Part shown: positions 27,001-36,000 of the stretch, piece by piece
Numbering within the stretch: position 1 is the stretch's first letter
Layout: each line of letters begins with the position of its first letter
Assembly: GCA_965285935.1 (NCBI GenBank)
Contig: OZ260666.1
Span: 65,534,001-65,598,000, forward strand
Length of the DNA stretch: 64,000 nt
Direction: 5' to 3'
Source: Ophelia neglecta
Taxonomy: Eukaryota
Made by a program: the position numbers

Positions 27001-30000
27001 TGAGAAACAAGTGAACATCATTCTGACACATTTCTAATGGAATGCTGGATCACAGAACCAACTAGAGTTTAGTCTGGATTGAATTTGCTAGGTGATTGTT
27101 TACTTGCTGAATGATGTGACTATGCTAAGCCGGCCCAGCTGTTTGGTACAAAATGGGAAGTTTTAATATAAAATCATTGCTAAAAGTACATATATTTCCT
27201 AGCTGCCGATTGCACTGGTGATCAGCTGAACATGCGGGTTCTTATTAAAAATTACTGTCTAAATGACAATAAGGGAGGATGGTTTAATTGTGACTGGAGT
27301 ACAATCATATAGATGTTTTATGGCAGTCCTTGCAATTTAAACATTGGAAATATTGTATTATAACATAAAATTTTGCAGCACCTGATTTTTCCCCGGAACT
27401 ACCGAGACAAATGTTATTTTTCAAGTTGCTGAATGTTGTTACCAGATGATAATGCCACTTTTAATTTTCTCAGCACTTTTATTCTGCATACCTTAGTAAA
27501 TGTGAAACTTGCTAAAAAAAGTGCACTTAAGTATTTCATGCTTTACAGTATATTATTAAACAAAAAACTTCAGGAATTTACCACCAGGCAGCCCTTAAAT
27601 TCAATTCATTGTTCAATTTGTTTCAATTCCAATTCCTTTGAATGCATCAATGACTGTTTCCATGTATAATAACAATTATATAGGTGATGGGTATGTACAT
27701 CGTGTACATAAAAGAGGCTGCAAAACTGGAGTCTGTAGCTAACCTTGAACATCACCATCAGCGGCAGAAAGCTCTAATCAGGCATGAACATTCTACACTA
27801 CACAAACCAAGTGTATACAGAAAATATGCAGGTCTGATTTATAAATTGCAAAATAAAACTAAAATATGGCCAAATCTTGCTCTTATTGACACATGAAAGA
27901 TGATGAATAACACTGTTCCTTTCAAGTTAAACATGAACAGCCTTGAACACATCAAGAAATTCATTTCTGCAGTGATAACAGCTCACATATTTCCTTGCAA
28001 TGTATAAAGGTGATAGGAGCTCTGCGGTGCAGACATAGTTTTCATTCATCAAACCAGGACACTTGTCATATGTTCCATACGATTGGATGTCAGTTTCTAG
28101 TATAAAGTACCTGCAGCGTTAGATGTGGTACAACCACTGCCGAGCGAAAAATGTTAACTATGAGGAGCATATATGATGAGCTAGAAGACGTATGACCACA
28201 TAGGTGACATTTGAATGACAATGTACACAACATGTTTAACACAGCTGCTATGTCAGATACCTTTGTACAAAAGTTCAACAACTTGCGTCACAGTCTTGAA
28301 AAATCAAACAAGGTATGTTCGGCTAGCAATGGTAATCACAGTTGATTGCAATAAAATGTAAACAGTTGAAAATAGTTGAGCACTTTTGATGATTCTGTTA
28401 GTAGCATAAGAATTTGGAATATACTACTTTAATACTAGCGCCTAACACCATAAATAGATGTAAATACTTAAAAACTGCTATTAACCTATAATGCTTTGTG
28501 TTTGTTTTCCACATACTTGAGTATCAGGGAAAGGAAAACAAAATACATGATGGGCTAATGAGTATTTGATTAACTGAGTGACACATTGATACACAATTGC
28601 AGTGACTATCATCAACATTGCAACATGTGTTACAACATTTGAAATCATGTGAAACTACTCTGAGATGTGATACAAGATGTGACCATGTATCATACTCAAG
28701 TGTCATTTAGAGTACAGGTGTCCCTGAACACACGCAGGTGCACAGATAACATGAGAGTCGGTCCACTTGTTTATAATTGTTAAGCATTATAGTCAAAGAA
28801 CCAAAAAAAGTCTTACCTGTGGTTGTGTAGCATTGACTTGTTTTGTCAGGGAATCCCTCTCTCGTTCCAATTCGTTTAATTTAACATTAGATAGGGCTAG
28901 ATTTTCCTGCGTTTCCCTCAAAGTATCCATTAGTTTATCTCGCTCGTCGAGCATGTTAACCATGAGCTGCTCAAAATTGGCATCATCTCCTGAGTAAGAC
29001 GAGTCCCGATCATTGGAGCCATCTTCGGAGATGGTGGGCATTACGTCACACATCATATTGAATCCGTTTACAAATTTCCCCGATCACAGAAATTATAATC
29101 CACACTCAACGGATCTGGCCGCTACCTAGAACCGATGCCAGACAACTTGTCAAAATTGTAAATGCATATGAATACACATTCGTGACATCTGAACAAGTCG
29201 ACACCGATTTTCGGTGATTTCTACTTCATAGCGGCACGCTTTATCCTCAAACCGGCCACAAAATACCTGAAAAGTGCTTTTACCATTCACACTCTCGCCA
29301 GCAATCCTATATTGTCTAATATCCTGTCTCTATCCGCTACATCCTCTCTCACCCCGACATTTTGGGAGCCATTTTCTTCAGTGAAGAAGTGTGCCGTTCC
29401 CAGAATGCCATTTGATTTACCTTAATTATGCTGAGGGGGGCATGGCGTGCACTGCTCAAACTGTTAGGCAGACCTTTGCAGATGAAACAGAACGAATTTA
29501 TGAAAAGTTGGTCAAGCTTTGAAGACTTTTGTCGGTTGTACTGATAATTCATGTACTAAAAATGAGGTTCACTCAATATATCAAAATACAAGCACATTAT
29601 ACACACGTACAGGTATTTGTAGCACTATCCTGAAATGTAGTGGTATAGATAAATATATATTTTTTTTTTAAAGAATGTGGACCAAAGCAATGGGGCGGTT
29701 AGCAAGGGTGGTTAGGGGATATTTTCAACTGAAGTTAATAAACTCAAGTTTGTGGAGTTCGTTTTTGCAAATGCTGAAAAATCTATGTATTTTGATTGTG
29801 TTTACCAGGAATGTTATTGACATGGAGTTATTTTTAATTGACCAAGTTCCGAAACCATTTTGATCTGTGTTTTGGGGGGAAAAAACTTTATCTGTGAAAC
29901 AATCTTTTAGCATAATGGTGAAGAAAGAACTTGCTTTATTGTAAAAAATATCATTTCTTTTTCATGATTTTAAGGTACACATTCCAATCTGACAGGAAAT

Positions 30001-33000: not shown

Positions 33001-36000
33001 ACCCTCTGCCTTTATGTTTGTCAAAATAAGACCAGATTGGGGCTAAGCTTCTAAAGATTAGAGTAGAAAAGCAAAGAATGTGTTAGGTCTGAAAGGATAA
33101 CAAAAGTTTTGTGTTACTTTGCCATCACTGGGCATATATGAGTGTAATATCTCATCACACTGTCATCTGTGGGCATTTGACCAGTTGGCAATTTGTCATT
33201 CAAATTTCTCTCAGTTGACACTTCCTCCAGTTGACCATTTAACTACATCTATGTTGTTTTGGTAGTAGAGGTGCCCCCTGGGAAACACAGGACTTGAAAA
33301 AAATCTAACAGTTTCCTTTTGAATTGAAAATGTCCACTGGTATCTTAGTTTAAAATTATTGCAATTAAGGAAGGTAGTTCTAACTGAAGAACTGATGAAA
33401 ACCACATCTGTGAAAGAATTCTGTTAACCTGCAAATTGAAGTGTAACCTGCTTAACACTTGATAAACAAATGAAACTGCTGCAAACAATGTGACAATTTC
33501 CTAAATTAGTGCAACTGGGTTCTTGTCAGTTTTGTAAGTGGCTTAGAAGAAGAATATCTTCAACAAGTAACCAGTGGGTTTCAATATATAACAGTCATGA
33601 ATGCAAATGGTAAGATCTCTTTTATAACTGAGAATGGTGTATAAGTACTCTCATTATATAATGAACATTTAACATTTAAATGACACTCTAAATATTATGC
33701 CAATTGTCTTTGTTACCAGTAAAAGAAGTCACCAGGAATTGTACAAAATCCTCTGAAGCTTTAGCTTGGTATGAAAAAGATTTATCAGATTTTGATCTGA
33801 GTGAAACAGATGATACCTGTGATAATGAAGGAGAGGAAATAGGAGATGATGGAGGTATGAAAAGAATTATAAACTACAAAGGTTATACAAGTGTACATAA
33901 TCAATTAACCTTTTCCTATATAAGAACACACAAACTATAAGATTAGGAGAATCTGAAGTATTGTATTCAAATTATTCTTTTGTAGTTCATATTCATATTT
34001 GCTTTGTAAATGTGCTAAAGAATAGAGACTCACACTTCAAAGTTTGCATTGGAAGAAGAATATGTTTTGAAAGGATAATTTATAATTTGAAAATACAATT
34101 CCTTATATATTACTATTTGCCTGAAAATTAGATTAATTTGTATTAAAAGCATACAATTTACACTTCAACTCATCAGCTTGGTACGGACTTGTATAATCTG
34201 TTCAAGTCATTAAATCAGTCATATGTGAACATAAGTGAATGGAACTTTTCTGATAGATATCATAGCGCACATTCTGAATTTGCAGCCACTGTAGCCAAGC
34301 AGCGTCGTTGTAAGAGAGGTAGCGAGATCCAAAAAGAACCTGATCATGGTCAGGTGTGGCCTCTCGATCTCTGGTTTCTGGTTGGCAGATTTGTTGCCCC
34401 CGAAGATGTCTCTATTTTTGCCAGAATATGCCATGGATCTCACATAGTCACACACTCAGCAAACTTCTGGTGTTCCCTGTATAAAAGGTATGGTATTTTC
34501 ATCTAGAACTAGAAATTATTTTATTTTTCTTGATTCTGCTATAAATATTGTTTTAAGCACAGTGGAGAAATACTTCCATTTGAGTACATTTTCACCATTT
34601 TTGCACTTAAACTACTATCTGTCTGTTATATAGTTATTTTAGGACAAATAAGTCAAGGGCCTGCAATTAAAGTTGCAGCAAATGGAAGTATTATTGAAGT
34701 TGGCTTAGTAATATTATGTCCTTTGAATATATAGGCGAAACCAGCCCAAACCTCTGGGTAAAACACTACATCCCCATCCTTGCAGACAAGCATATATTTA
34801 GGCCTTTGAATGACCCTAGGGACAATAAAAAAGCTAACTTACCCTGTCGGAGCAATGGTTTTAGACATGCCCTTCAGGAATTTGACAAGGCAGGTTGCCA
34901 AACTGTTTTGAACAGACTTTTAGTAAATTTCAGTCCAAATGGATATTCCAATAATTTCATTAGGAAAGTAGGATAAATAATCACCTTCTTAATAATGTAC
35001 TCTTTCATGATAGAATTTTTGTTTTCAGATATTATAACCCAGACATAGTTGTGCCAAAAGCTTTGAGACTTCAATCCATGGATCGTGTGCATGGACTAGT
35101 GGAGCGAGTTGTCCGCTCCCTTTACTACTGTTATCCTTTATTTCAAGATAGGGTACGTGGCTTGTCTCCATTTAGAAATGATCCTGACTTGTTAATCGGA
35201 GCCAAGTGTGCAGTGATGTGGTACAAAAGGATCAACAATGTGTGGCATTTCTTCTTCAAATTCCTCAAGCCTAATCACAATGCTTGCCTATTGGTCAGAC
35301 GACAGGGAAAGCATTGTTATCGTCGGGACTATCTGATGGAAGAAAACAATATTCACTACAACCGCGGTGAAAACTGTTGCATTCTGCAAGTGGTCACCAA
35401 TGATTTTATTTCACTTCCGGTTATTATGGGACAGTATTTAATACAAGTGGCTATTAGTGTGGGCCATGACATGCGGTATCACAAACTGAAGCTTGTGTTT
35501 AATTCTGAGTTCATCTCTTCCAAAAACCGCAAGGACTCATTCCTGAATAGCTCTATGCTGGTGATGGACCCTGTAGCTAATATGAAGGTTCTGCAATGGT
35601 GGGATCCCAGATATCCTCGTTAACCACTGCTAGGTTAATACTGTATGCCAAGGTAATATTAACATTGTGCATATAATATACCACTACGTTTCTGACCACC
35701 TTATTCCATTTGTAACTTAGTCAGTTTGAACATTTTCTCATATTTGTGTGCAGCATACATCATTTGCATTGAATAGAAAATTGTATTATTAAGTTACATG
35801 GTGGGCAGAAATGTTTAAATAATGAATATATAGGTGTAATAATTTGTACTGGCAAAGTTTGGCATATGGCTGAAGTCAGTGTACTAGACAACTGCACTCC
35901 CTTTGAGGCAGTGATTAGGGGTTTCAGGAAACGATACCATTTATATGTTAAAAAGTGTTGCATATCACACTGATGGCTTAAGTGATTGTTATAATGTATT

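What the first reader, a model, noticed from the sequence alone, without database searches (positions are those of the whole stretch)
28817..35623. Liprin-alpha and TMEM183 are neighbours, as in human (TMEM183A next to PPFIA4): possible ancient microsynteny
Seen: the liprin-alpha ATG (29056, minus) and the TMEM183 ATG (30830, plus) are 1.8 kb apart, head-to-head. From memory of the human genome, TMEM183A lies immediately beside PPFIA4 on 1q32, there in tandem orientation. Inference: the pair may have stayed linked since the bilaterian ancestor, with a local inversion, implying shared cis-regulation.
Basis: partly seen in the sequence, partly recalled or inferred. Interest (0 to 1): 0.65.

Follow-up and report, generated by a model that had tools for sequence, protein, structure and literature searches.

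The report
Liprin-alpha and TMEM183 head-to-head neighbours
The first exon of a liprin-alpha gene and a complete TMEM183 gene really do sit back to back 1.8 kb apart in this invertebrate sequence, as their mammalian counterparts also sit side by side, but whether this is a preserved ancient arrangement with a shared control region could not be tested here.

Summary
Liprin-alpha coding exon 1 lies at 28817-29056 (-), with its ATG at 29056. It is 70-81% identical to liprin-alpha N-termini. A five-exon, 365-codon TMEM183 gene lies at 30830-35623 (+) and is collinear with proteins named TMEM183(-like). The two ATGs are 1,773 bp apart with nothing detectable between them. Only exon 1 of liprin-alpha is in the window, so intron 1 exceeds 28.8 kb.

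The mammalian half of the claim is backed by papers. Cattle and yak tables list TMEM183A, PPFIA4 and MYOG consecutively, and the three genes lie together on human chromosome 1.

The evolutionary reading is plausible but untested. No tool here holds animal genomes, so intermediate lineages could not be tabulated. The only extra datum is that both genes lie on the same 211-Mb Dreissena sequence.

Shared cis-regulation is not implied. Orientation differs between lineages. Each ATG has its own CpG cluster, and about 0.6-1 kb of background-level, AT-rich DNA separates the clusters.

This is an ordinary annotation plus a candidate conserved gene pair, of modest interest.

The parts
1..28816 (-). Liprin-alpha intron 1, incomplete; it runs off the window start and no further liprin exon was detected in it
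   Evidence: 9 of 9 full-length liprin-alphas match only residues 1-80. The loose tblastn found no collinear hit. 0 of 142 ORFs of at least 55 aa have a Pfam match. The GT donor is at 28816-28815.
28817..29056 (-). Liprin-alpha coding exon 1 (80 codons, ATG at 29056, phase 0 end)
   Evidence: 70-81% identity to liprin-alpha N-termini; in-frame TGA upstream; CAG|GTAAGA donor.
29057..30829 (.). 1,773-bp divergent intergenic region, presumably holding both 5' UTRs and promoters
   Evidence: CpG o/e is 0.75 here against 0.29 for the window. No Pfam, Rfam or tRNA match lies in it.
28900..29399 (.). CpG cluster on the liprin-alpha side (3-6 CpG per 100 bp; window mean 1.07)
   Evidence: It lies within the block 28701-29600, which has o/e >= 0.7 and a maximum of 1.15.
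30400..30999 (.). CpG cluster on the TMEM183 side (1-6 CpG per 100 bp)
   Evidence: It lies within the block 29901-31100, which has o/e >= 0.7 and a maximum of 0.97.
30697..30706 (.). Palindrome GCGCATGCGC, 124 bp upstream of the TMEM183 ATG. The resemblance to the NRF1-type site of housekeeping promoters is recalled, not tested.
   Evidence: It is the only match in the window at up to 1 mismatch. 9 of 100 shuffles gave at least one match.
30830..30899 (+). TMEM183 exon 1 (ATG at 30830; 23 codons plus 1 nt)
   Evidence: The short basic start resembles the N-termini of the Ptychodera (P0271) and Elysia (P0273) proteins. GT donor. Too short for tblastn.
32679..32774 (+). TMEM183 exon 2
   Evidence: AG/GT splice sites. 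tblastn hits from 2 of 4 homologues: P0124 E 0.007 and P0131 E 0.008.
33720..33854 (+). TMEM183 exon 3
   Evidence: AG/GT splice sites. tblastn hits from 4 of 4 homologues, E 0.002-0.054.
34286..34487 (+). TMEM183 exon 4
   Evidence: AG/GT splice sites. tblastn hits from 4 of 4 homologues, E 4e-14 to 1e-18.
35029..35623 (+). TMEM183 exon 5 with the TAA stop (197 codons plus 1 nt)
   Evidence: 250 homologues at E<=0.001, best 1e-63. tblastn E 6e-45 to 4e-55. Named relatives.

Best explanation
This is a genuine divergently transcribed gene pair in a lophotrochozoan-like genome. The first coding exon of liprin-alpha (minus strand) and a compact five-exon TMEM183 gene (plus strand) face away from each other across 1.8 kb. 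Each ATG has its own cluster of non-depleted CpGs in an otherwise strongly CpG-depleted window. So each gene most likely has its own promoter close to its ATG, rather than one shared core promoter (inferred).

In mammals TMEM183A is the immediate neighbour of PPFIA4, on the side away from MYOG. By recollection that is PPFIA4's 5' side, with both genes on the same strand. So in both lineages TMEM183 lies upstream of a liprin-alpha gene, and only TMEM183's own orientation differs.

The simplest history is that the linkage was inherited from the bilaterian ancestor and that the small TMEM183 unit was inverted in one lineage (inferred, not shown). Nothing found here shows that selection or shared regulation maintains the linkage. 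Slow, passive retention is at least as likely.
For: - Gene identities and exon structure.
- Nothing lies between the genes. 0 of 85 ORFs of at least 40 aa in 28.8-35.7 kb reach a Pfam cut-off, there are 0 Rfam matches and 0 tRNAs. There is no N or gap in the window, so the junction is not a scaffold join.
- CpG pattern: window o/e is 0.29 and the median of 637 windows of 400 bp is 0.25. Only three large blocks reach 0.7, and two of them flank the two ATGs. Between them (29500-30099) the count is 0-2 CpG per 100 bp, against a window mean of 1.07.
- A GCGCATGCGC palindrome lies 124 bp upstream of the TMEM183 ATG.
- Mammalian order TMEM183A, PPFIA4, MYOG in cattle and yak tables. The same three genes are named together on human chromosome 1 and were used to retrieve synteny in frog, medaka and salmon. 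A TMEM183A-PPFIA4 chimeric transcript is reported in human placenta.
- In Dreissena polymorpha the annotated liprin-alpha (P0100) and TMEM183-like (P0272) proteins are both listed on a sequence of 211,287,878 bp.
- Base rates: about 600 human gene pairs are conserved across metazoans, and within-chromosome shuffles gave 0.015 on average (Irimia et al. 2012).
Against: - Only two lineages are in hand: this one and vertebrates. The Dreissena datum shows the same chromosome, not adjacency.
- Orientation differs between the two lineages.
- The human orientation is recalled. The passages I saw of the chimera paper do not state that the transcript is a read-through.
- Transcription start sites are unknown, so 'two promoters' rests on CpG distribution alone. 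The two clusters could also be read as one hypomethylated region of about 2.4 kb with an AT-rich centre.
- Only exon 1 of liprin-alpha is visible, so the integrity of the whole gene is unverified.
- The Pfam model for TMEM183 (PF27923, precomputed) is not in the local Pfam copy. One search gave no match, so membership rests on pairwise and named homology.
Confidence: 0.55

Rival explanations
1. The pair is a selectively maintained ancient microsyntenic pair. Either the genes are co-regulated from the shared upstream region, or regulatory elements of liprin-alpha are embedded in or around TMEM183 (a bystander arrangement), so that breaks between them are deleterious.
For: - In both lineages TMEM183 sits on the upstream side of a liprin-alpha gene (window; mammals: plus recollection of strands).
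- The intergenic distance here is short at 1.77 kb, and head-to-head pairs are enriched among conserved pairs: 54.8% in human and 68.6% in Lottia (Irimia et al. 2012).
- The whole 2.4 kb around both ATGs is less CpG-depleted than the rest of the window.
Against: - Orientation is not conserved. In Irimia et al., pairs that are not 5'-5' in human keep their orientation in only 15-25% of cases, and co-regulated pairs are typically 5'-5' in all lineages.
- There are two separate CpG clusters with background-level DNA between them.
- Vertebrates retain four liprin-alpha paralogues but TMEM183 beside only one (recalled), so liprin-alpha expression does not generally need TMEM183 next door.
- Liprin-alpha is not a developmental transcription factor of the kind that anchors regulatory blocks.
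- No expression, chromatin or conservation data could be examined.
Confidence: 0.2
2. Coincidence. The two genes became neighbours independently in this lineage and in vertebrates, perhaps helped by lying on the same ancestral linkage group. The resemblance carries no historical or functional meaning.
For: - Only two lineages show the adjacency, and orientation differs.
- The pair was noticed by a reader comparing many windows with remembered human neighbourhoods, which is a look-elsewhere effect.
- No paper found in the main-text searches lists the pair as conserved.
- If both genes belong to one ancestral linkage group, the chance of adjacency rises roughly twenty-fold (inference).
Against: - For a specified gene, the chance that its immediate upstream neighbour is the orthologue of the human upstream neighbour is of the order of 1 in 10,000 in random order, and still about 1% or less within one linkage group (inference).
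- Within-chromosome shuffles in Irimia et al. gave almost no conserved pairs, although under a four-lineage criterion.
- Both genes are on the same chromosome-scale sequence in Dreissena.
Confidence: 0.2
3. Artefact. The juxtaposition comes from a mis-assembly, or the liprin-alpha exon is an isolated dead fragment rather than the start of a working gene.
For: Only exon 1 of liprin-alpha is in the window. No read or transcript evidence was available.
Against: - There is no N or gap anywhere in the window.
- The exon has an intact 80-codon frame, a consensus donor and 70-81% identity to functional orthologues.
- It sits in a CpG cluster as expected of an active 5' end.
- Long first introns are common in this gene family (recalled).
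Confidence: 0.04

Closest known systems
Conserved ancient microsyntenic pairs (CAMPs) of Irimia et al. 2012 (PMC3514665)
   Same: The two genes are unrelated and tightly linked in two very distant animal lineages. The pair is head-to-head with a short intergenic region in the invertebrate, which is the commonest arrangement among CAMPs.
   Different: The CAMP definition needs linkage in four or more lineages; here two are known. Orientation differs between lineages. The pair is not named in that paper's main text (0 occurrences of ppfia or liprin).
Mammalian TMEM183A-PPFIA4-MYOG neighbourhood (human 1q32; cattle chromosome 16; yak chromosome 14)
   Same: TMEM183 is the direct neighbour of a liprin-alpha gene. 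By recollection it lies on the liprin-alpha gene's 5' side, as it does here.
   Different: The mammalian pair is tandem (recalled), while here it is divergent. No MYOG-like or other 1q32-type gene was detected in the window. The only other Pfam-recognisable ORF is a C2H2 zinc-finger protein.
Bidirectional-promoter gene pairs such as HSPD1/HSPE1
   Same: Head-to-head arrangement with CpG-rich DNA at both 5' ends.
   Different: The ATG-to-ATG distance is 1,773 bp, against the signature of less than 1 kb quoted. There are two separated CpG clusters rather than one. Orientation is not conserved, unlike HSPD1/HSPE1.

Membership tests
Liprin-alpha (PPFIA / SYD-2 / Dliprin-alpha) | Conserved N-terminal segment leading into the first coiled coil | tested here: met
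   Exon 1 (80 aa) is 70-81% identical over 94-100% of its length to the N-termini of named liprin-alphas. 9 of 9 full-length proteins align residues 1-80 to 29056-28817.
Liprin-alpha (PPFIA / SYD-2 / Dliprin-alpha) | Liprin-alpha CC2 domain (PF25526) and three C-terminal SAM domains | tested here: inconclusive
   These were not found in the window. The minus-strand remainder of the gene must lie beyond the window start, so absence here says nothing about the gene.
TMEM183 (Pfam PF27923, as precomputed on the hits) | Collinear similarity along the length of full-length family members | tested here: met
   Exons 2-5 align in order to residues 16-353 of P0124 and 20-358 of P0131. The exon 1 start resembles the N-termini of P0271 and P0273. 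The total of 365 codons compares with 355-404 aa in named members.
TMEM183 (Pfam PF27923, as precomputed on the hits) | Relatives carry the family name in curated or automatic annotation | tested here: met
   Relatives of P0124 are named 'transmembrane protein 183-like' (Ptychodera flava, Dreissena polymorpha) and 'transmembrane protein 183A isoform X2' (Hypanus sabinus, P0190). P0190 is hit directly by exon 5 at E 8.3e-21.
TMEM183 (Pfam PF27923, as precomputed on the hits) | Match to the family's profile HMM above its gathering score | not testable with these tools
   The local Pfam copy returned 0 families for all five exons. PF27923 appears only as a precomputed label.
Conserved ancient microsyntenic pair (Irimia et al. 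2012) | [quoted passage not shown] | not testable with these tools
   No animal genome collection was available. Known so far are this window and mammals. Dreissena shows the same 211-Mb sequence only.
Conserved ancient microsyntenic pair (Irimia et al. 2012) | The two genes are phylogenetically unrelated (not tandem paralogues) | tested here: met
   The two genes give different, non-overlapping sets of homologues with different domain labels.
Bidirectional-promoter pair | Divergent orientation with less than about 1 kb between the starts and one shared promoter region | tested here: inconclusive
   The orientation is divergent (met). ATG to ATG is 1,773 bp and start sites are unknown. CpGs form two clusters (28900-29399 and 30400-30999) separated by DNA with 0-2 CpG per 100 bp, which argues against one shared core.

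The most novel reading that the evidence does not exclude
TMEM183 and liprin-alpha form a bilaterian-wide linked pair in which TMEM183 always occupies the territory immediately upstream of liprin-alpha whatever its own orientation. On this reading the pair is kept together because liprin-alpha's upstream control elements are interleaved with TMEM183, or because the two products act in the same sensory or synaptic cells. Zebrafish tmem183a mutants have hair-cell defects, and liprin-alpha is known as an active-zone scaffold (recalled). That would be a regulatory-block-like constraint around a synaptic scaffold gene rather than a developmental transcription factor. It would also give the first functional lead for TMEM183, whose function is unknown.
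Probability: 0.12. Interest if true: 0.55.

Novelty: new member of a known kind. Interest (0 to 1): 0.3.

Why it matters
If the pair proves linked across many phyla, it adds one more case to the several hundred known ancient gene pairs. The case would be slightly unusual, because the relative position (TMEM183 upstream of liprin-alpha) would be kept while orientation is not. That pattern argues for a constraint of the enhancer-territory type rather than a shared promoter. It would also offer a lead on TMEM183, a conserved animal protein of unknown function. If the pair is not linked elsewhere, this is simply a correct annotation of two neighbouring genes.

Tried and rejected
**Searches of TMEM183 exon 5**
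- The word-indexed search with lengths 'longer' scored 0 of 181 candidates. The full HMMER library search then found the family.
- The ESM Atlas gave a best score of 0.77, which is below the 0.9 lead level, and only unnamed clusters. I discarded it.
- Exon 5 folded alone with a 19-row alignment gave mean pLDDT 74.9 and pTM 0.61, a beta-rich domain. Foldseek against the PDB gave 0 matches at E<=0.001. The best was E 0.04 and TM-scores were 0.29 or lower. So there is no solved structural relative and no functional lead.

**Other sequence searches**
- Pfam on the six exons gave no TMEM183 family. Liprin exon 1 gave only three sub-threshold coiled-coil-type matches at E about 0.04.
- The PDB sequence search with liprin exon 1 gave only a chance match at E 0.65.
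- The listing of cluster members, meant to name the hits, was not sent because the database was off.
- The ORF at 34698-34976 (+), which I first considered as a TMEM183 exon, was rejected. It is not needed for the frame and no homologue aligns to it.
- The upstream ATG at 30783 with a GTGAGT donor, considered as an alternative exon 1, was rejected. It is out of frame with exon 2 (read by eye).
- Searches for further liprin exons and for other genes of the human 1q32 neighbourhood, by Pfam on 346 ORFs, found none. Short exons would escape these scans.

**Literature**
- Main-text searches for the pair as a conserved linkage found nothing beyond mammals.

**Not used or not available**
- The prokaryote-only genome-contig collection was not used because it cannot bear on animal synteny.

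
Full report
**Scope and limits.** The window is 64,000 bases with no N. Its best protein matches are annelid, nemertean and mollusc proteins, so I do not take it for human. I never made the joined coding sequence or protein, and only exon lengths were added up. Paper supplements were also closed.

**Liprin-alpha.**
- On the minus strand an ATG starts at 29056. It is preceded by an in-frame TGA and followed by 80 codons up to a CAG|GTAAGA donor, so the exon ends at 28817.
- Searched alone against longer proteins, this exon gave 6738 hits at E<=0.001 among 6810 candidates.
- The best named hits are full-length liprin-alphas carrying SAM domains and the Liprin-alpha CC2 domain: Dimorphilus gyrociliatus 80% identity, Babylonia 78%, Lineus and Haliotis 75%, and many bivalves and insects at 69-71%.
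- In tblastn, 9 of 9 named full-length liprin-alphas matched the window only with residues 1-80 at 29056-28817.
- A deliberately loose search (E<=200, 1732 rows) left only two low-score, non-collinear minus-strand hits below 28817.
- None of 142 ORFs of at least 55 aa in 1-28,800 has a Pfam match.
- So the window holds only coding exon 1, and intron 1 is longer than 28.8 kb.

**TMEM183.**
- From the ATG at 30830 the model has five exons: 30830-30899, 32679-32774, 33720-33854, 34286-34487 and 35029-35623. All are bounded by AG and GT, and the last ends at a TAA stop. The lengths sum to 1098 nt, which is 365 codons plus the stop.
- The local Pfam copy has no model for these exons, and a word-indexed search of exon 5 found nothing.
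- A full HMMER scan of 1.84 billion representatives with exon 5 gave 250 proteins at E<=0.001, 159 at E<=1e-10 and 31 at E<=1e-30. The best was 1.2e-63.
- Many of these hits are 350-420 aa long and match with their C-terminal halves.
- tblastn of four of the hits onto the window shows collinear matches. Exons 5 and 4 are hit by 4 of 4 queries, exon 3 by 4 of 4, and exon 2 by 2 of 4. The two queries that missed exon 2 are N-terminally short.
- Names came from a search with the full-length hit P0124. It returned 6 proteins at E<=0.001 among 1627 candidates. They include 'transmembrane protein 183-like' of Ptychodera flava and Dreissena polymorpha and 'transmembrane protein 183A isoform X2' of Hypanus sabinus, all labelled PF27923.
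- The Hypanus protein had already been hit directly by exon 5 at E 8.3e-21.
- Exon 1's short basic start resembles the N-termini of the Ptychodera and Elysia proteins.
- The identification as TMEM183 is therefore sound.

**What lies between and around the two genes.**
- The two ATGs are separated by 1,773 bp. In 28.8-35.7 kb, 0 of 85 ORFs of at least 40 aa reach a Pfam cut-off. One reaches E 0.0029 at 18 bits, below its cut-off of 25.2.
- Rfam and tRNA scans of the whole window are empty.
- The window as a whole is strongly CpG-depleted, with o/e 0.29 and a median of 0.25 over 637 windows of 400 bp.
- Only three sizeable blocks reach o/e 0.7. They are 28701-29600 over liprin exon 1 and its upstream DNA, 29901-31100 over TMEM183 exon 1 and its upstream DNA, and 44801-46700 elsewhere.
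- At 100-bp resolution the liprin side carries 3-6 CpG per 100 bp (28900-29399) and the TMEM183 side up to 6 (30400-30999).
- Between them, 29500-30099 carries 0-2 CpG per 100 bp. That is the window's background of 1.07, with G+C of 0.26-0.34.
- A GCGCATGCGC palindrome lies 124 bp upstream of the TMEM183 ATG. It is the only match in the window, and 9 of 100 shuffles gave at least one. Its likeness to NRF1-type sites of housekeeping promoters is my recollection.
- I infer two neighbouring but separate promoters, not one shared bidirectional core. Start sites are not known.

**The mammalian side.**
- A cattle GWAS table lists 'TMEM183A, PPFIA4, MYOG, U6, ADORA1, MYBPH, CHI3L1 ...' for chromosome 16, 0.81-1.31 Mb (PMC13244917).
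- A yak table lists 'TMEM183A, PPFIA4, MYOG ...' for one 0.3-Mb window (PMC11267844).
- A glycosyltransferase synteny study names TMEM183A, PPFIA4 and MYOG as the genes near MGAT4FP on human chromosome 1. It used them to retrieve the region in frog, medaka and salmon (PMC12616123).
- A placenta study validated a TMEM183A-PPFIA4 chimeric transcript (PMC11471197). The passages I saw do not say that it is a read-through.
- That the human genes are in tandem, with TMEM183A upstream, is recollection. If it is right, TMEM183 lies on the 5' side of a liprin-alpha gene in both lineages and only its own orientation differs. Inversion of one small gene would account for that.

**Is it ancient microsynteny?**
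- Irimia et al. [quoted passage not shown] They found about 600 such pairs in human. Within-chromosome shuffles gave 0.015 pairs on average.
- Here only two lineages are in hand.
- The one further datum I could extract is that the annotated Dreissena polymorpha liprin-alpha (P0100) and TMEM183-like (P0272) proteins are both listed on a sequence of 211,287,878 bp. That shows the same chromosome and leaves the distance unknown.
- By simple reasoning (inference), the chance that a given gene's immediate upstream neighbour is the orthologue of its human upstream neighbour is about 1 in 10,000 in random order. It is perhaps 1% or less if both genes sit on one ancestral linkage group. Inherited linkage is therefore more likely than coincidence, and I put it near 0.75 overall.
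- The pair is not named in the main text of Irimia et al. (0 occurrences of ppfia or liprin), nor in any paper found by my searches. The lists are in supplements I could not open, so the pair may already be tabulated there.

**Does it imply shared cis-regulation?** Not on this evidence.
- In Irimia et al., co-regulated pairs are typically 5'-5' with conserved orientation: 51.4% of pairs that are 5'-5' in human keep it, against 15-25% for other orientations. Here the orientation differs between lineages.
- The two CpG clusters are separate.
- Vertebrates kept TMEM183 next to only one of four liprin-alpha paralogues (recalled). The second human copy of TMEM183A is a retrocopy on chromosome 3 (PMC5010893, passages).
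- A bystander-type constraint, with liprin-alpha control elements in or around TMEM183, is not excluded and is my most novel admissible reading.

**About TMEM183 itself.**
- Papers describe it as a protein of unknown function (PMC5010893).
- It is probably not a membrane protein despite its name (PMC10013729, passages).
- Zebrafish tmem183a mutants show a reduced startle response and fewer, less dye-permeable hair cells (PMC8879510, abstract and passages).
- Exon 5 folded alone gives a moderately confident beta-rich domain with pLDDT 74.9. It has no significant match in the PDB: 0 matches at E<=0.001.

**Verdict.** The evolutionary idea is reasonable but unproven, and its regulatory corollary is not supported. 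The finding is a candidate new member of the known class of conserved animal gene pairs, and a straightforward table of gene positions in public genomes would settle it.

Noticed in passing
window 40814-43243 (-): An uninterrupted 810-codon ORF encodes a C2H2 zinc-finger protein (Pfam zf-C2H2_4 E 2e-18; translation). It is the only other Pfam-recognisable ORF of at least 55 aa in 35.6-64 kb (1 of 119). Its last two fingers remind me of the Ikaros/Hunchback-type C-terminal pair (recalled, untested).
   Followed up: partly
window 44801-46700: This is the strongest CpG-rich block of the window (77 CpG, maximum o/e 1.65). No ORF there has a Pfam match. It may be the promoter of the zinc-finger gene or of an unrecognised gene.
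   Followed up: no
window 31708-31955 and 44615-44859: A dispersed repeat: about 250 bp in TMEM183 intron 1 recurs in inverted orientation at 44.6-44.9 kb with 89% identity. It is probably a short interspersed or miniature element.
   Followed up: no
window 157-527; 21261-21680; 52198-52857: Three tandem arrays: 19 bp x 19.5 copies, 35 bp x 12.6 copies and 52 bp x 12.8 copies (91% matches). The first two lie inside the liprin-alpha first intron.
   Followed up: no
whole window: CpG o/e is only 0.29 overall, with a median of 0.25, and a few sharp islands. This vertebrate-like pattern suggests heavy germline DNA methylation in this invertebrate genome (inference).
   Followed up: partly
window 38738-39217 (-) and 39431-39670 (-): Two ORFs lie just downstream of TMEM183. 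One is proline/tyrosine-rich (160 aa). The other is glycine/arginine-rich with a hydrophobic stretch (80 aa). Neither has a Pfam match. They may be exons of a small unrecognised gene.
   Followed up: no
window 30724 and 30783 (+): Two ATGs lie shortly upstream of the TMEM183 start. The one at 30783 is out of frame with it. If they are transcribed they would be upstream ORFs; otherwise the start site lies within about 50 bp of the ATG.
   Followed up: no
P0100 and P0272 (Dreissena polymorpha): The annotated liprin-alpha and TMEM183-like proteins of the zebra mussel are both listed on a sequence of 211,287,878 bp, which means the same chromosome. The distance between them could not be obtained.
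   Followed up: partly
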